From the NCBI RefSeq assembly GCF_965641715.1, contig NZ_OZ282455.1: DNA of 64,000 bases; one strand, 5' to 3'. Below are positions 29,647 to 57,857 of this stretch, in pieces. Position 1 is the first letter of the stretch; the number at the start of each line of letters is the position of its first letter. The notes beneath the pieces are model-generated. The model had not been told where the DNA came from, did no database searches, and saw nothing but the letters and a program-made list of their open reading frames with translations. The stretch is from Escherichia coli (lineage in GTDB: Bacteria > Pseudomonadota > Gammaproteobacteria > Enterobacterales > Enterobacteriaceae). Both the position numbers and the translations under genes were made by a program.

Positions 29647-30039
29647 GTGGACGATGAACGGAAAAGGAAAAAATTCACACTTTATCTGCATCCGGAAAAA
29701 GCTGCAGACTCTCAAACTTTGGAAGCGATAGAGTCCGTTCCGCGTTCTGAGCGTGGTGAGCTGTTCCGGAATGCATTTATTTCTGGAATGGCGTTACACC
29801 AACTTGATCCTCGCCTGCCTGTATTGCTGACTGCCATTTTGAGCGAGGAGTTTTCAGCAGATCAGGTTGTAACCTTACTCAGTCAGACGACAGGATGGAA
29901 GCCTTCTCAGGCCGATATCAGAGCTGTGTTGACTGAACTCGGTGCTTTGCAATCTGCTGAAAAAATGCCTCCTTCTGCTACTGATTCGGTGCAGGAGGCA
30001 ATGAATGATGTGCGCCTTAAAATGCAAAAATTATTCTGA
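29647..30039 (+). CDS. parR: ParR/StbB adaptor protein
   Basis: GTG start after RBS GAGGAG; ...SVPRSERGELFRNAFISGMALHQLDPRLPVL... resembles R1 ParR. Confidence 0.7.
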   Translation: MDDERKRKKFTLYLHPEKAADSQTLEAIESVPRSERGELFRNAFISGMALHQLDPRLPVLLTAILSEEFSADQVVTLLSQTTGWKPSQADIRAVLTELGALQSAEKMPPSATDSVQEAMNDVRLKMQKLF

Positions 30040-30043
30040 TATA

Positions 30044-31315
30044 TCAGAATGAAGCAATGGGGATCTCAGTCCATTGTGTTGTATACGAAGGCGAGAGCAT
30101 TTCCCGTTTCATTTGCCATTCAGGGGCGGTTCCTCGCCCCGCAAACCACACTTTCCCTTTTCCAGACTGGTTCAGTTCATCGAGTGTTTTCATTAACTTT
30201 TCGCTGTTTTTACGGGGCTGGATCTCATCAAATAATCCCGGCTGCGCTATACCCGATGGTGTGAAATCAGCCAGCATGACTCCTGCCTTCATATAGCGGT
30301 ACCCTTCACGCCAGACATGGTTTAACGCTCTGCATGCTGCGGCAATAATGTCCCGGCTGTCCTGTGTGGGTAATGGAAGCTTTTCCACAGCGGCATTGCT
30401 GTAACAGGGTTCTTTTACTGCAAAGGGGGATGTCCGTACAAATGTCGTCACCTGCCGGCAATACTGACGCTCCCCACGTAGTTTCTCTGCGGCCCGCTCT
30501 GCATACTGAACAACAGCCTGGTGCATGGCATCTTTGTCTGTGATTCGTTCACCAAAACTGCGACTACAGACAATCTGCTGTTTTGCCGGTGGTGCTTCTT
30601 CCAGGGATATGCAGGACTCGCCGTTGAGTTCGCGTACCGTACGCTCAAGAATGACGCTGAAGTTTTTCCGGATGAATGCCGTGTTAGCCTGCGCCAGCTG
30701 CAGTGCTGTGTTAATACCCAGCGCATTCAGCTTTTCCGTCAGTCTGCGTCCTACTCCCCAGACCTCACCAACTGGCTGCAGCCCCAGTAGCTTCAAGATC
30801 CGATTACGGTTTTCTGCCGTCAGCGCGACCACACCGGAAAACTGTGGCCATTGCTTTGTTGCCCACTGTGCACTTTTAGCCAGCGTTTTTGTAGGCGCAA
30901 TGCCCACCCCCATGGTGAGTCCTGTCCAGCTTTTTACCTGTTCCCTGAGCTGATGACCAAAAAACTCCGGAGAGATGCAATGATTTATCCCCCGCAAATC
31001 AATGAACATTTCATCAATTGAGTAGGGCTCAACTGCGGGAGAAAGCGACTCCAGAACAGCCATAACCCGTTGGCTCATGCTGTGGTACAGCGCATAATTG
31101 CTGGAAAATACATGTATTTTCTTCTCCAGGCGCATTTGTCTCACCTGAAACCAGGGCTGCCCCATTCTGATGCCAAGGGCTTTTGCCTCCGGGCTGCGCG
31201 CGATCACACAGCCATCGTTATTGCTGAGTACGATGACCGGTTCGTTGCGAAGGTCCGGGCGGAAAACTTTTTCACATGAGGCGTAGAAACTGTTGATATC
31301 AGCCAGTGCAAACAT
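30044..31315 (-). CDS. umuC: error-prone DNA polymerase V catalytic subunit (UmuC/ImpB/MucB family, Y-family polymerase)
   Basis: 423 aa, MFALADINSFYASCEKVFRPDL... conserved Y-family N-terminus. Confidence 0.9.
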   Translation of the reverse strand: MFALADINSFYASCEKVFRPDLRNEPVIVLSNNDGCVIARSPEAKALGIRMGQPWFQVRQMRLEKKIHVFSSNYALYHSMSQRVMAVLESLSPAVEPYSIDEMFIDLRGINHCISPEFFGHQLREQVKSWTGLTMGVGIAPTKTLAKSAQWATKQWPQFSGVVALTAENRNRILKLLGLQPVGEVWGVGRRLTEKLNALGINTALQLAQANTAFIRKNFSVILERTVRELNGESCISLEEAPPAKQQIVCSRSFGERITDKDAMHQAVVQYAERAAEKLRGERQYCRQVTTFVRTSPFAVKEPCYSNAAVEKLPLPTQDSRDIIAAACRALNHVWREGYRYMKAGVMLADFTPSGIAQPGLFDEIQPRKNSEKLMKTLDELNQSGKGKVWFAGRGTAPEWQMKREMLSPSYTTQWTEIPIASF

Positions 31316-31752
31316 CAGCGTAACTCCCGCGTCCTGTGTATCACGTGAGTGACAACACCAAAAATACAGATGTTTTCCGGATACAGTGTGCGGAACTCCG
31401 GGCTGTCTGAAACCGGCTCCAGTGCCGGGCGTGGGCGCAACAGCAGTCGTTTGACGGTGAACTCACCGTCGATCTCAGCGATAACGATGTCCCCGTGTTG
31501 TGGTTTTTCGGCCCTGTCCACTACCAGCAGATCACCATTCTGCACGCCAGCCTGGTTCATCGATTCACCGCTGGCGCGCAGAAAGAAGGTGGCTGCAGGT
31601 CTGCTGATGCAATAGCTGTTCAGATCCAGTTCCTGCTCAGCATAATCAGTGGCAGGCGAAGGAAAACCGGCCTGGCAACGATCGGCAAACAACGGTCGCA
31701 CGTAACTGTCATCGCCTGAAGGGTCAGCCGGACGGTGATAAACGGTACTCAT
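31315..31752 (-). CDS. umuD: UmuD/ImpA/MucA family protein (LexA-like self-cleaving)
   Basis: 145 aa with S24 peptidase signature ...RASGESMNQAGVQNGDLLVVD...; coupled to umuC. Confidence 0.9.
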   Translation of the reverse strand: MSTVYHRPADPSGDDSYVRPLFADRCQAGFPSPATDYAEQELDLNSYCISRPAATFFLRASGESMNQAGVQNGDLLVVDRAEKPQHGDIVIAEIDGEFTVKRLLLRPRPALEPVSDSPEFRTLYPENICIFGVVTHVIHRTRELR

Positions 31753-31997
31753 GCTGCAGGCAGCCAGCTGTCGTCCTGCCAGATTTCTTCCAGCAGAGAC
31801 AGGATACGTTCTTTATCCTTGTCGTTGCGGGCTCCTGTGACAGATACAGACGGGGCGCTGCCCTGGTCTATACGCAGCCAGATTTCCGGGTAGTGTGGTT
31901 TCAGACGTTGTTCGATTTCATTCTGTAGCGCCTGAAGTGTGCCTGATTTGAGGTTTTTTGTGCTCTGGCGGTCGAAAAGAATTTCAATGCGGATCAT
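31749..31997 (-). CDS. dinI: DinI-like protein (ImpC-like)
   Basis: 82 aa from MIRIEILFDRQSTKNL...; first gene of dinI-umuD-umuC-like operon as in IncI1 impCAB. Confidence 0.75.
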   Translation of the reverse strand: MIRIEILFDRQSTKNLKSGTLQALQNEIEQRLKPHYPEIWLRIDQGSAPSVSVTGARNDKDKERILSLLEEIWQDDSWLPAA

Positions 31998-32020
31998 GTT
32001 CTCATCTCCCTTTTCTATTG

Positions 32021-32036
32021 CTGTATGCATATACAG
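32021..32036. promoter_or_regulatory. LexA (SOS) box upstream of dinI/umuDC-like operon
   Basis: CTGTATGCATATACAG = CTGT-N8-ACAG palindrome, 24 bp upstream of ATG at 31997. Confidence 0.8.
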
Positions 32037-32390
32037 TATTCTAATAACTGAATCCACACACAGTCAAATGTCATTATTGTGACTAAAAAACGCTCAATTC
32101 TCTGAGCGTGTGGCTGTATGCCTGCTGTGGACTGCTGTGTCCAGCTTATCCACAGCATTTTGCGCACGGTTCTGTGGACAAAATACCTGGTTACCCAGGC
32201 CGTGCCGGCACGTTAACCGGGCTGCATCCGATGCAAGTGTGTCGCTGTCGCCGGCCTCCTCACCCGGTCACGTTTCGTCGTTCCTCCTCCACGCGCTGCG
32301 GCTTCGGGGCCGCACCTGCATTCGTATGCGGTCGCCCGGTTACAGGTGCGGCACGGCCTGATGGAGGCCGCATGTGAGAGGAGAATTCCC

Positions 32391-33317
32391 ATGCCAAACT
32401 GGTGCTCGAATCGTATGTATTTTTCTGGTGAACCGGCACAGATCGCTGAGATTAAACGACTGGCCAGCGGCGCAGTCACACCGTTTTATCGCCGCGCCAC
32501 AAATGAAGGTATTCAGCTGTTTCTGGCCGGAAGTGCCGGACTTCTGCAGACCACTGAAGATGTGCAGTTTGAACCGTGCCCCGGACTGACGGCTGCCGGA
32601 CGTGGTGTTGTATCGCCGGAGAATATCGCGTTCACACGCTGGCTGACACACCTGCAGAACGGTGTGCTACTGGATGAACAAAACTGCCTGATGCTGCATG
32701 AACTCTGGCTGCAGAGCGGTACTGGACAGCGTCGCTGGGAAGGATTACCGGACGATGTCAGGGATACCATCACCGCACTTTTCACCGCAAAAAGAGGTGA
32801 CTGGTGTGGCTTCTGGAGTAACGAGGATGTATCGGTGTGGTGGAACCGTCTTTGTGACAACGTACTGCCGGAAAAAACCATGCCGTTTGACCTGCTGACG
32901 GTTCTGCCCACCCGCCTGGATGTTGAAGTGAATGGCTTTAACGGTGGTGTTCTGAACGGTGTTCCTTCTGCATATCACTGGTATACGGAACAGTATGGCG
33001 TGAAGTGGCCTGTGGGGTATGAGGTGAATATCAGCAGTCAGGGAGACAACTTCATTCAGGTTGATTTCGACACGCCGTGGTGTCAGCCGGAAAGCGACGT
33101 TATTGCAGAATTAAGCCGCCGTTTCAGCTGCACGCTGGAGCACTGGTATGCCGAACAGGGCTGTGATTTCTGTGGCTGGCAGTTGTATGAGCGCGGAGAG
33201 CTCGTTGATGTGCTGTGGGGGGAACTGGAATGGTCTTCCCCGACAGATGACGATGAGCTGCCGGAAGTCACCGGACCTGCGTGGATAGTCGACAATGTGG
33301 CGCATTATGGCGGATGA
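32391..33317 (+). CDS. conserved plasmid hypothetical protein
   Basis: 308 aa from MPNWCSNRMYFSGE... with RBS GAGGAG upstream; Cys/Trp-rich. Confidence 0.45.
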   Translation: MPNWCSNRMYFSGEPAQIAEIKRLASGAVTPFYRRATNEGIQLFLAGSAGLLQTTEDVQFEPCPGLTAAGRGVVSPENIAFTRWLTHLQNGVLLDEQNCLMLHELWLQSGTGQRRWEGLPDDVRDTITALFTAKRGDWCGFWSNEDVSVWWNRLCDNVLPEKTMPFDLLTVLPTRLDVEVNGFNGGVLNGVPSAYHWYTEQYGVKWPVGYEVNISSQGDNFIQVDFDTPWCQPESDVIAELSRRFSCTLEHWYAEQGCDFCGWQLYERGELVDVLWGELEWSSPTDDDELPEVTGPAWIVDNVAHYGG

Positions 33318-56496: not shown

Positions 56497-56726
56497 GACA
56501 AAGTCTCCATTTCTGGAATTTAAATCAAACGGAAAGGTTAAAAATTTATTTGCAGGCGATAAGAGCTAACCAGAGGAATTAGCCGTGCGATAAAAGGATT
56601 GTTGCAGATACGAAAGTCGTTAGAATAGCTGCGGGCGCTTGAGGCTGTATGCCGAAAGCGTTTTGTGGACGGTATACAGCAGAAAGCCCCTGGAGATTTT
56701 TTTATCAATCAACCAAGGGCTCTACT

Positions 56727-56933
56727 GTAATGCCTAGACAACATTATAGTAGCCCGATAACCGCCGTAAGGCAATGGAGGGGCTATGATGCCACAGCGAA
56801 CGTTTTTAATGATGTTAATCGTCATCTGTGTGACGATTCTGTGTTTTGTCTGGATGGTGAGGGATTCGCTTTGCGTACTCCGGCTCCAGCAGGGAAACAC
56901 AGTGCTTGTGGCAACGTTAGCCTACGAAGTTAA
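56727..56933 (+). CDS. pndC: PndC (Mok-like) overlapping reading frame of hok-type toxin locus
   Basis: ORF overlapping pndA in another frame, as for mok/hok. Confidence 0.4.
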   Translation, partial: VMPRQHYSSPITAVRQWRGYDATANVFNDVNRHLCDDSVFCLDGEGFALRTPAPAGKHSACGNVSLRS

Positions 56934-57263: not shown

Positions 57264-57422
57264 CGGATTTTCTCTCTGTATTTATGGGTAGTTATCGAAC
57301 TGAATGTGCCAGTTTTTTCAGGAGACGGCAAAGTTGAGATGATTGGTTCTGATTCAGAGCATGAGTTTCCTCGGTGTGACGGGCATGTCGGGCGGATTTT
57401 GAGAAACAACAGATGTAAAAAA

Positions 57423-57448
57423 ACCGACTGGTGAGGTCGGTTTTTTTA
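57423..57448. terminator. bidirectional rho-independent terminator
   Basis: AAAAAA-CCGAC-TGGTGAG-GTCGG-TTTTTTT hairpin flanked by A- and T-tracts. Confidence 0.65.
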
Positions 57449-57761
57449 CTGTTCCGTTACAGAGTGGGTGGCCCTGACCGGAGGAAATCTCTTTTCAACT
57501 AACGTTCTTATAATAGCGAGCTGTTCATTTGATAGCAACCATCCTTATAATCCGCAGGTTAGCTCTGTCTGGCGACACTTCTGCCGTGATATCCATCGGG
57601 ACTATGGATGCAAGATTTTAAGTCCTGGCTGAACAAACAGGTGGTGCTGTGTTCAGTGCTCTGGCAGGAGGAAGTCTCTTTTCAACTAACACTGAAAGTG
57701 CCGTTGTGACAGGCAATGTAAGAGTAAGCAACGGTGATTTCCTCCAGTGATGGAGAAGCGG

Positions 57762-57857
57762 ATGATTAATCTGTTAATCATCGTTCTCAGGGCAGTAGTT
57801 GCCGTTGCAAACGCGCTGATTGCTGTTCTGGAACTGATCCGGGAACTTGTCGACTGA
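57762..57857 (+). CDS. small hydrophobic protein (31 aa), candidate membrane peptide / type I toxin-like
   Basis: ATG preceded by GGAGAAG; MINLLIIVLRAVVAVANALIAVLELIRELVD; two ~25-bp direct repeats GGAGGAA(A/G)TCTCTTTTCAACTAAC upstream (57480-57504, 57668-57692). Confidence 0.35.
   Translation: MINLLIIVLRAVVAVANALIAVLELIRELVD

What the first reader, a model, noticed from the sequence alone, without database searches (positions are those of the whole stretch)
30044..32036. SOS-controlled dinI-umuD-umuC-like mutagenesis operon with a canonical LexA box
CTGTATGCATATACAG (32021-32036) matches CTGT-N8-ACAG and lies 24 bp upstream of the DinI-like start at 31997, followed by overlapping umuD-like and umuC-like genes. 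This is the organisation of IncI1 impCAB.
Basis: partly seen in the sequence, partly recalled or inferred. Interest (0 to 1): 0.3.

Follow-up and report, generated by a model that had tools for sequence, protein, structure and literature searches.

The report
Known plasmid impCAB SOS mutagenesis operon

Summary
On the minus strand a 16-bp LexA-box core (32036..32021; 20-mer TACTGTATATGCATACAGCA, 17/20 to the E. coli consensus, reached by 0 of 100 shuffles) starts 1 nt after a sigma-70-like -10 hexamer. It ends 23 nt before the ATG of an 82-aa DinI-like gene. That gene overlaps a 145-aa UmuD-like gene by 4 nt (ATGA), which overlaps a 423-aa UmuC-like gene by 1 nt (TGATG).

The locus is 100% identical to several sequenced I-complex plasmids and 99.35% identical to IncI1 plasmid pTF2. 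ImpC and ImpA are identical to those of pTF2 and carry UniRef names whose representatives are IMPC_ECOLX and IMPA_ECOLX. For pTF2, published proteomics show ImpC (21x), ImpA (9x) and ImpB (2x) raised in an SOS-derepressed strain. All catalytic and cleavage residues are intact.

Diverged Klebsiella IncFII versions (52-70% protein identity) have different upstream DNA but the same -35 / -10 / SOS-box layout. LexA control is therefore a conserved feature and not a chance match.

The operon sits at the far end of the conjugative leading region and points away from oriT, an arrangement already described in 2024. Verdict: already known, interpretation supported, low interest. LexA binding to this exact allele was not tested.

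The parts
32090..32109 (-). Terminator-like hairpin (ACGCTCAGAGAATTGAGCGT followed by T6) 22 nt upstream of the imp -35. It probably insulates the imp promoter from upstream minus-strand transcription.
   Evidence: 8 pairs, 4 GC, loop 4, T-run. Conserved in pTF2 with one stem substitution. The function is inferred.
32062..32067 (-). -35 hexamer TTGACT of the imp promoter
   Evidence: TTGACT, 18 nt, TAGAAT, 10 of 12 matches, the only such hit on the minus strand in 29900-32400. Conserved in I-complex relatives. In S. sonnei pSH284-2 an IS26 abuts exactly this hexamer.
32048..32063 (-). Weak second LexA-like site CTGTGTGTGGATTCAG overlapping the -35 hexamer and spacer
   Evidence: The 20-mer is identical to the pTF2 site AACTGAATCCACACACAGTC (heterology index 13.49, just under the cut-off of 15) in PMC12211044. 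It is absent from the Klebsiella versions, so its significance is uncertain.
32038..32043 (-). -10 hexamer TAGAAT
   Evidence: The strong SOS box core begins 1 nt downstream, so the inferred transcription start falls inside the operator.
32019..32038 (-). Strong LexA operator, 20-mer TACTGTATATGCATACAGCA (core CTGT-N8-ACAG at 32036..32021)
   Evidence: 17/20 to the consensus, 0/100 shuffles. One base different from the pTF2 site with heterology index 1.60. The promoter/operator allele is exact in about 587 PLSDB plasmids. The position is conserved in diverged operons.
32006..32012 (-). Ribosome-binding site AAGGGAG, 8 nt before the impC ATG
   Evidence: Read directly from the sequence. It supports the ATG at 31997 over the upstream GTG at 32057.
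31749..31997 (-). impC, an 82-aa DinI-like protein
   Evidence: Pfam DinI E=8e-18. Matches solved DinI 1GHH at E=7e-6 over residues 3-79. 34.6% identical to K-12 DinI, with the acidic C-terminal segment retained. The exact sequence is named Protein ImpC, RepID IMPC_ECOLX, and is identical to pTF2 ImpC.
31315..31752 (-). impA, a 145-aa UmuD-like self-cleaving S24 protein
   Evidence: Peptidase_S24 E=3e-24. Matches UmuD structures 8GMT and 1UMU at E=3e-36. 50% identical to K-12 UmuD. Ala28-Gly29 aligns with UmuD Cys24-Gly25, and Ser64 and Lys101 are present. Named Protein ImpA, RepID IMPA_ECOLX.
30044..31315 (-). impB, a 423-aa UmuC-like Y-family DNA polymerase
   Evidence: IMS, IMS_HHH, IMS_C and DUF4113 domains. 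58.1% identical to K-12 UmuC. Asp6, Tyr11, Asp101-Glu102 and QPGLF at 358-362, aligned with UmuC QLNLF. 413/424 identical to pTF2 ImpB.
30033..30050 (.). Perfect palindrome ATTCTGATATATCAGAAT spanning the stop codons of convergent impB (30044) and stbB (30039). On the minus strand it is followed by AAUUUUUGCAUUUU.
   Evidence: first hairpin of the fold. A terminator role is inferred and weakly supported, since the stem is AT-rich.
29960..30000 (-). Candidate intrinsic terminator of impCAB: a GC-rich hairpin (30000..29966) plus U6 (29965..29960), lying antisense inside the 3' end of stbB
   Evidence: hairpin present in both the MFE and centroid structures. The simple scan missed it because of the long loop. 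The fold z-score for the 101-nt piece is only -1.45, so this is an inference.

Best explanation
This is an intact copy of impCAB, the plasmid-borne SOS mutagenesis and UV-protection operon of IncI1/I-complex plasmids, whose prototype is on TP110. In undamaged cells host LexA binds the strong operator at 32019-32038, which starts at the last base of the -10 hexamer and covers the likely transcription start, and blocks RNA polymerase. A weak site over the -35 hexamer may also contribute. After DNA damage, RecA bound to single-stranded DNA (RecA*) triggers LexA self-cleavage, and one translationally coupled mRNA is made for ImpC, ImpA and ImpB. RecA* then promotes self-cleavage of ImpA at Ala28-Gly29 through its Ser64/Lys101 dyad. 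The resulting ImpA' dimer binds ImpB to form a Pol V-type translesion polymerase that copies past lesions at the cost of mutations. ImpC, a DinI-like protein, most likely modulates the RecA filament and so the timing of ImpA processing. What is shown here: the sequence identity, gene order, intact motifs, operator quality, operator position and operator conservation. What is taken from the literature on near-identical loci: SOS-dependent induction, UV protection and toxicity on overexpression. What is inferred from UmuD, UmuC and DinI: the cleavage site used, formation of the ImpA'2-ImpB complex and the role of ImpC.
For: The locus is 100% identical over 2301 bp to several I-complex plasmids, and at least 5000 plasmid records match it. 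It is 99.35% identical to pTF2 over 2323 bp, with ImpC and ImpA identical. The UniRef names point to IMPC_ECOLX and IMPA_ECOLX. Identities to K-12 DinI, UmuD and UmuC are 34.6%, 50.0% and 58.1%, and the impA/impB junction TGATG is the same as in umuDC. The operator matches the consensus at 17/20, reached by 0/100 shuffles, and abuts a 10-of-12 sigma-70 promoter. Its core lies 39 nt from the ATG, against 37 nt for the umuD and dinI operators in K-12. In the footprint test, Klebsiella IncFII operons with 52%, 60% and 70% protein identity have different upstream sequence but the same layout of TTGCAA, 17 nt, AATAAT and then a strong SOS box. From the literature, the pTF2 box has heterology index 1.60, ImpC, ImpA and ImpB rise 21-, 9- and 2-fold in a LexA-defective SOS* strain (PMC12211044), impCAB overexpression causes a severe growth defect, and the genes are under purifying selection across 460 I-complex plasmids (PMC10286972).
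Against: There is no direct LexA-binding or induction data for this exact allele, which has G in place of A at the central position 11 of the 20-mer. By the published formula one substitution can add at most about ln((N+0.5)/0.5), roughly 3.7-4.1, so the heterology index should stay below about 6, far under the cut-off of 15. That is a bound and not a measurement. The transcription start was not mapped. ImpB rose only 2-fold in pTF2, which suggests post-transcriptional limits. The last 16 residues of ImpB differ from the pTF2 allele, and the effect of that is unknown. The original TP110 and Shigella papers could not be read here.
Confidence: 0.93

Rival explanations
1. The three genes are impCAB, but the palindrome is a chance or vestigial match, and the operon is constitutive or controlled by something other than LexA.
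For: The core pattern CTGT-N8-ACAG alone is expected 0.77 times per window. CTG-N10-CAG strings are abundant in the window (43), which is a codon-usage effect. This allele has a non-consensus central G.
Against: The 17/20 match to the 20-mer consensus was reached by 0 of 100 shuffles. The site sits next to the -10 hexamer. A strong box occupies the same position in diverged operons whose flanks differ. The near-identical pTF2 operon is derepressed in a LexA-defective host. Overexpression is toxic, so tight repression is needed.
Confidence: 0.03
2. The operon is a decaying remnant with no polymerase function, as in many plasmids where imp is truncated.
For: Truncated or disrupted copies are common. 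pB16EC0346-1 has lost the promoter and half the box and has an IS21 element in place of impB. An ETEC plasmid keeps only an impC stub. S. dysenteriae p92-9000 has lost impB. The role of plasmid umu-like genes is called unclear in PMC11541004.
Against: All three ORFs in the window are full length with every catalytic, cleavage and clamp-binding motif intact. The exact protein sequences each recur on at least 1000 contigs. dN/dS is low across I-complex plasmids.
Confidence: 0.03
3. The main role of the cassette, and of DinI-like ImpC in particular, is to damp the recipient's SOS response during plasmid establishment, as PsiB does, with lesion bypass secondary.
For: The operon sits at the edge of the leading region, near psiB, psiA, ssb and the anti-restriction genes. 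ImpC is DinI-like, and DinI acts on RecA filaments (established knowledge). ImpC is the most strongly induced product.
Against: The operon points away from oriT, so it cannot be transcribed from the entering T-strand. [quoted passage not shown] Deleting impC, impA, impB or impCAB did not significantly change SOS levels or conjugation frequency in pTF2.
Confidence: 0.05

Closest known systems
impCAB of IncI1 plasmids (TP110 prototype; pTF2, NC_032100.1, as the sequenced and experimentally studied copy)
   Same: Same gene order, same overlaps, same promoter, weak box and strong box. ImpC and ImpA are identical to pTF2. The DNA is 99.35% identical over 2323 bp. The flanking synteny is the same, with parM/stbB on one side and the DUF1281 and methylase leading-region genes on the other.
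   Different: There is one central base in the strong box (G here, A in pTF2) and two other substitutions in the 150 bp upstream. ImpB is 423 aa against 424 aa, with 10 substitutions of which 8 are in the last 16 residues. Homology stops near 30098, where a different parM/stbB allele begins. The TP110 sequence itself was not available for direct alignment.
E. coli chromosomal umuDC (Pol V) plus the separate dinI gene
   Same: UmuD-like and UmuC-like proteins at 50% and 58% identity, the same TGATG junction, a LexA box at almost the same distance from the start codon (-37 against -39), and the same catalytic, cleavage and clamp motifs.
   Different: On the chromosome dinI is an unlinked gene with its own LexA box, whereas here the DinI-like gene is fused into the operon as its first cistron. 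The ImpA cleavage site is Ala-Gly, where UmuD has Cys-Gly. ImpC is only 34.6% identical to DinI.
DinI-like/umuD/umuC operons of Klebsiella IncFII plasmids (e.g. NZ_CP055014.1, CP067873.1)
   Same: Same three-gene order, same slot next to the DUF1281/methylase leading-region genes, and the same layout of -35, 17-nt spacer, -10 and a directly adjoining SOS box.
   Different: Protein identities are 52%, 60% and 70%. umuD and umuC are separated by 11 nt instead of overlapping. There is no second weak box. In NZ_CP055014.1 parM lies co-directionally downstream and not convergently.
mucAB of pKM101 (Pol RI)
   Same: A plasmid-borne, LexA-controlled UmuDC-type translesion polymerase operon (established knowledge; mentioned in PMC7092418).
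   Different: mucAB has no DinI-like first gene. It was not compared by sequence here.

Membership tests
impCAB operon of IncI1/I-complex plasmids | Three genes in the order DinI-like, UmuD-like, UmuC-like on one strand, tightly coupled | tested here: met
   ORFs at 31997..31749, 31752..31315 and 31315..30044 with ATGA and TGATG overlaps.
impCAB operon of IncI1/I-complex plasmids | Proteins match the reference ImpC, ImpA and ImpB | tested here: met
   The exact ImpC and ImpA sequences carry UniRef names with representatives IMPC_ECOLX and IMPA_ECOLX and are identical to pTF2. ImpB is 413/424 identical to pTF2 ImpB and 316/318 identical to a protein named ImpB. A direct alignment to the TP110 entry was not possible.
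impCAB operon of IncI1/I-complex plasmids | Located on an I-complex conjugative plasmid backbone | tested here: met
   The window holds an IncI1-type repA region, nikA/nikB, trbABC and traY-type genes at 97-99% identity to IncI1 plasmids. The best matches are typed IncI-gamma/K1, MOBP, MPF_I, the same label given to IncI1 plasmid pTF2.
impCAB operon of IncI1/I-complex plasmids | UV/SOS-inducible expression conferring UV protection and mutagenesis | not testable with these tools
   Published for near-identical loci: ImpC, ImpA and ImpB rise 21-, 9- and 2-fold in SOS* (PMC12211044). TP110 UV inducibility appears only in reference lists. The primary papers are not held.
E. coli-type LexA operator (SOS box) | Match to TACTG(TA)5CAGTA, with the CTGT-N8-ACAG core | tested here: met
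   17/20 match with a perfect core, reached by 0/100 shuffles.
E. coli-type LexA operator (SOS box) | Overlaps or abuts the promoter so that binding blocks initiation | tested here: met
   The core begins 1 nt after the -10 hexamer TAGAAT of a 10-of-12 promoter match. The transcription start was not mapped.
E. coli-type LexA operator (SOS box) | Conserved in orthologous or diverged operons despite flank divergence | tested here: met
   The Klebsiella IncFII operons have the boxes TACTGTATATAAAACCAGTA and AACTGTACATCCATACAGTA in the same position.
E. coli-type LexA operator (SOS box) | Bound by LexA protein | not testable with these tools
   This needs an EMSA, a footprint or ChIP. The pTF2 site, one base different, has a computed heterology index of 1.60.
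UmuD-like self-cleaving S24 proteins | Ala/Cys-Gly cleavage site and Ser/Lys catalytic dyad | tested here: met
   Ala28-Gly29 aligns to UmuD Cys24-Gly25. Ser64 lies in SGESM and Lys101 in FTVKRL.
UmuC-type Y-family DNA polymerases | Catalytic carboxylates, steric-gate Tyr, little-finger domain, UmuC-type C-terminal domain and clamp-binding motif | tested here: met
   Asp6, Tyr11 and Asp101-Glu102, the IMS_C and DUF4113 domains, and QPGLF at 358-362 aligned with UmuC QLNLF.
DinI family | DinI fold and sequence signature with an acidic C-terminal helix | tested here: met
   Pfam PF06183 at 65 bits against a cut-off of 24.2. Aligns to solved DinI 1GHH over residues 3-79. The C-terminal segment LLEEIWQDDSW aligns with DinI ILQETWESADDW. 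RecA binding was not testable.

The most novel reading that the evidence does not exclude
The impB stop codon lies 4 nt from the stop codon of the convergent stbAB (parMR-type) partition operon, and the only terminator-like hairpins for impCAB lie antisense inside stbB. SOS induction of impCAB could therefore send transcription into the partition genes and transiently lower partition-protein expression by interference or antisense RNA, linking DNA damage to plasmid segregation. A related possibility is that the mosaic junction near 30098, which gives ImpB one of two alternative C-terminal tails, alters its partner interactions. Neither idea was tested here, and I did not look for either in the literature.
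Probability: 0.05. Interest if true: 0.35.

Novelty: already known. Interest (0 to 1): 0.08.

Why it matters
The finding adds nothing new to biology. It correctly annotates a widespread plasmid cassette that can raise mutation rates in Enterobacteriaceae under DNA-damaging stress, including stress from antibiotics such as quinolones, and that marks the distal boundary of the conjugative leading region. Its practical value is as an annotation anchor. It fixes the orientation of the window, with oriT near 48.8 kb and the leading region at 32.4-48.8 kb, and it confirms that the host is an IncI1/I-complex resistance plasmid.

Tried and rejected
1. The apparent 2.2-fold excess of CTG-N10-CAG in the window (43 against 19 expected) suggested many hidden LexA sites. 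I rejected this because the count is the same for every spacing from k=4 to 16, and higher at in-frame spacings, while CTG and CAG are each about 1.7-1.9 times over-represented. It is a codon-usage artefact.

2. The longer 102-aa reading of impC from the GTG at 32057, similar to the long starts annotated in some records, was rejected. It would place the -10 hexamer and the operator inside the coding sequence. AAGGGAG sits 8 nt before the ATG at 31997. The 82-aa product is the one named ImpC.

3. I was concerned that the typing 'IncI-gamma/K1' contradicts 'IncI1'. It does not, because MOB-suite gives IncI1 plasmid pTF2 the same label.

4. R64 (AP005147) is not in the plasmid collection. The TP110 sequence paper and the Shigella impCAB paper are not held.

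5. The simple terminator scan found nothing downstream of impB on the minus strand. Folding revealed two hairpins, but the overall z-score is only -1.45, so the terminator assignment stays tentative.

6. An exact heterology index for the window's box was not computed because the Lewis frequency matrix was not available. Only an upper bound derived from the published formula is given.

7. pKL53-M was first taken as the source plasmid. That was rejected because it is collinear with the window only over 25124-47658 and carries a group II intron that the window lacks.
Full report
OBSERVATION. The minus strand carries CTGTATATGCATACAG at 32036..32021, which reads CTGTATGCATATACAG on the + strand. 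There are 23 nt between the box and the ATG at 31997.

Three consecutive ORFs follow. The first is 82 aa (31997..31749), the second 145 aa (31752..31315) and the third 423 aa (31315..30044). Pfam assigns them to DinI (E=8e-18), Peptidase_S24 (E=3e-24) and the impB/mucB/samB polymerase family with its HHH, C-terminal and DUF4113 domains. The first two genes overlap by ATGA and the last two by TGATG. An AAGGGAG ribosome-binding site lies 8 nt before the ATG.

IS THE BOX MORE THAN CHANCE? It occurs once, against 0.77 expected, and 52 of 100 shuffles had at least one match. The full E. coli consensus TACTG(TA)5CAGTA, however, is matched at 17 of 20 positions, and no shuffle reached that.

Position adds further weight. 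The only good sigma-70-type match on the minus strand in 29900-32400 is TTGACT (32067-32062), an 18-nt spacer and TAGAAT (32043-32038), 10 of 12 matches. The box core begins 1 nt after the -10 hexamer, so a bound LexA dimer would cover the likely transcription start. A second, weak CTG-N10-CAG site (32063..32048) overlaps the -35 hexamer.

An apparent excess of CTG-N10-CAG across the window (43 against 19 expected) is an artefact. All spacings from 4 to 16 give similar counts, and CTG and CAG are simply over-used.

IDENTITY. Megablast against 72,556 plasmids reached the limit of 5000 records. Several records are 100% identical over 2301 bp, and the features are annotated as DinI-like or ImpC, UmuD or ImpA, and Y-family polymerase. 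The best hit, pKL53-M, is a conjugative MOBP/MPF_I plasmid typed IncI-gamma/K1.

The exact ImpC and ImpA sequences are on record on at least 1000 contigs each. Their UniRef names have the Swiss-Prot entries IMPC_ECOLX and IMPA_ECOLX as representatives. Against pTF2, the locus is 99.35% identical over 2323 bp, ImpC and ImpA are identical, and ImpB is 413/424 identical.

The rest of the window is an IncI1 backbone. The repA region is at 1-1921, the leading-region genes (DUF1281, methylase, ssb, psiB/psiA, ardA) run from about 32.4 to 46 kb, nikA/nikB lie near 48.8-51.9 kb, and the trb/tra genes extend to 64 kb.

PROTEINS ARE INTACT. ImpA matches solved UmuD and UmuD' structures at E=3e-36 and is 50% identical to K-12 UmuD. 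Ala28-Gly29 aligns with the UmuD cleavage bond Cys24-Gly25, and Ser64 and Lys101 align with the catalytic dyad.

ImpB is 58.1% identical to K-12 UmuC. It keeps Asp6, Tyr11 and Asp101-Glu102, and it has QPGLF where UmuC has its clamp-binding QLNLF.

ImpC aligns to the solved DinI structure over residues 3-79 (E=7e-6) and is 34.6% identical to K-12 DinI, including the acidic C-terminal segment.

INDEPENDENT SUPPORT FOR LexA CONTROL. A tblastn search with ImpC found diverged DinI-like/umuD/umuC operons on Klebsiella IncFII plasmids, in the same slot next to the DUF1281/methylase genes. Their proteins are 52%, 60% and 70% identical to ImpC, ImpA and ImpB.

Their upstream DNA differs throughout from the window's when read side by side. 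I did not run a formal alignment. Both nevertheless read TTGCAA, a 17-nt spacer, AATAAT and then, directly, a strong SOS box. The boxes are TACTGTATATAAAACCAGTA and AACTGTACATCCATACAGTA. Conservation of the operator and its position while the flanks have changed is the signature of a functional site.

Within the I-complex the strong box varies only at central positions, and the whole 86-bp promoter/operator allele of the window is exact in about 587 PLSDB plasmids. The K-12 umuD and dinI operators lie at almost the same distance from their start codons, at -37 against -39 here.

PUBLISHED EXPERIMENTS. For pTF2, Microbiol Spectr 2025 (PMC12211044) lists two predicted LexA sites in the impCAB promoter. 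One is TACTGTATATACATACAGCA with heterology index 1.60, which differs from the window's site by one base. The other is AACTGAATCCACACACAGTC with index 13.49, which is identical to the window's weak site. The paper also reports ImpC, ImpA and ImpB raised 21-, 9- and 2-fold in a LexA-defective SOS* strain, and deletions of the imp genes did not change conjugation frequency.

By the formula given in that paper, one substitution can add at most about 3.7-4.1 to the index. The window's site should therefore remain below about 6, far under the cut-off of 15. This is an inference and not a computed value.

PLoS Genet 2023 (PMC10286972) shows that impCAB overexpression causes a severe growth defect and that the genes are conserved under purifying selection in 460 I-complex plasmids.

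[quoted passage not shown] That is exactly the arrangement here. impCAB is on the minus strand pointing away from oriT, while the leading genes point toward it.

MECHANISM. The explanation I commit to is as follows.
- LexA represses the operon at the operator that adjoins the -10 hexamer.
- DNA damage activates RecA (RecA*), LexA cleaves itself, and one coupled transcript is made.
- RecA* promotes ImpA self-cleavage at Ala28-Gly29.
- The ImpA' dimer and ImpB form a Pol V-type lesion-bypass polymerase that uses the beta clamp.
- DinI-like ImpC tunes RecA* activity and thus the timing.

The first two steps are supported by the sequence evidence here and by published induction data on a 99.35%-identical locus. 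The later steps are inferred from UmuD, UmuC and DinI.

3' END. The impB stop codon (30044) is 4 nt from the stop codon of the convergent stbB gene (30039). A perfect palindrome at 30050..30033 spans both stop codons. A GC-rich hairpin plus U6 (30000..29960) lies antisense inside stbB. These are candidate terminators but are weakly supported, with a z-score of -1.45.

Homology with pTF2 ends near 30098, inside the last 50 nt of impB, where a different parM/stbB allele begins. This gives ImpB an alternative 16-residue tail.

DECAY ELSEWHERE. Other plasmids show the cassette being eroded.
- An ISEc53/ClbS insertion removes the promoter and the left half of the box in pB16EC0346-1.
- IS26 abuts the -35 hexamer in S. 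sonnei pSH284-2.
- Only an impC stub is left in an ETEC plasmid.
- impB is lost in S. dysenteriae p92-9000.

The window's copy is complete.

VERDICT. The feature is the already known impCAB operon of IncI1/I-complex plasmids. Its LexA box, SOS induction and leading-region boundary position have all been published. Interest is low.

Noticed in passing
window 32110-32415: The non-coding gap between the imp promoter and the DUF1281 gene folds, as single-stranded DNA, into a long imperfect hairpin (about 32360..32196) with MFE -80.3 kcal/mol against -58.1 +/- 4.4 for shuffles (z = -5.1). The sub-segment 32108-32200 is 91.7% identical to unannotated DNA upstream of the DUF1281 gene in IncF plasmids that lack impCAB, such as pO157. 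It may be an Frpo/ssi-type single-strand promoter at the distal end of the leading region. No -35/-10 pair was found by the simple scan, and no known Frpo sequence was available for comparison.
   Followed up: partly
window 57415-57857 (AgrB-like RNA 57415-57502 on the - strand; LexA-like site 57625-57640; dqlB about 57762-57857 on the + strand): This is a second putative SOS-controlled locus. Rfam finds an AgrB antisense RNA (55 bits, gathering score 40). CTGGCTGAACAAACAG is the reverse complement of the pTF2 'dqlB' LexA site (heterology index 11.64). [quoted passage not shown]
   Followed up: partly
window 56633-56790: A sok antitoxin RNA (Rfam RF01794, 134 bits) marks a hok/sok post-segregational killing locus next to trbA.
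   Followed up: no
window about 30098 (inside the 3' end of impB): A mosaic junction. Homology with pTF2 stops here, and the convergent parM/stbB partition module is a different allele. The two lineages therefore encode ImpB proteins with different last 16 residues (...SPSYTTQWTEIPIASF here...SQCYTTKWRDIPLARLG in pTF2).
   Followed up: partly
window 37568/37569: pKL53-M carries a group II intron (ltrA reverse transcriptase/maturase, about 2.3 kb) inserted at this point of the leading region. The window lacks it, so this is the empty site.
   Followed up: no
L003 (CP088803.1) 1883-2535, corresponding to window 32032: In IncF plasmid pB16EC0346-1 an ISEc53 element plus a ClbS/DfsB gene has replaced the imp promoter and the left half of the LexA box. 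Homology resumes exactly inside the box, and an IS21-family element lies where impB would be. This is an example of the operon losing SOS control and function.
   Followed up: partly
window 1-25000: The left part of the window is an accessory mosaic not shared with pKL53-M or pTF2. Its best matches carry Tn3/TnAs1 transposases, tet(A), a colicin Ia-type gene and cvaB-type exporter genes, and no single plasmid covers more than 48% of it.
   Followed up: no
window 32090-32109: A clean terminator-like hairpin with a T6 tail on the minus strand, immediately upstream of the imp -35 hexamer. No minus-strand gene is evident upstream for it to terminate, so it may belong to the structured element described in the first item or may act as an insulator.
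   Followed up: no
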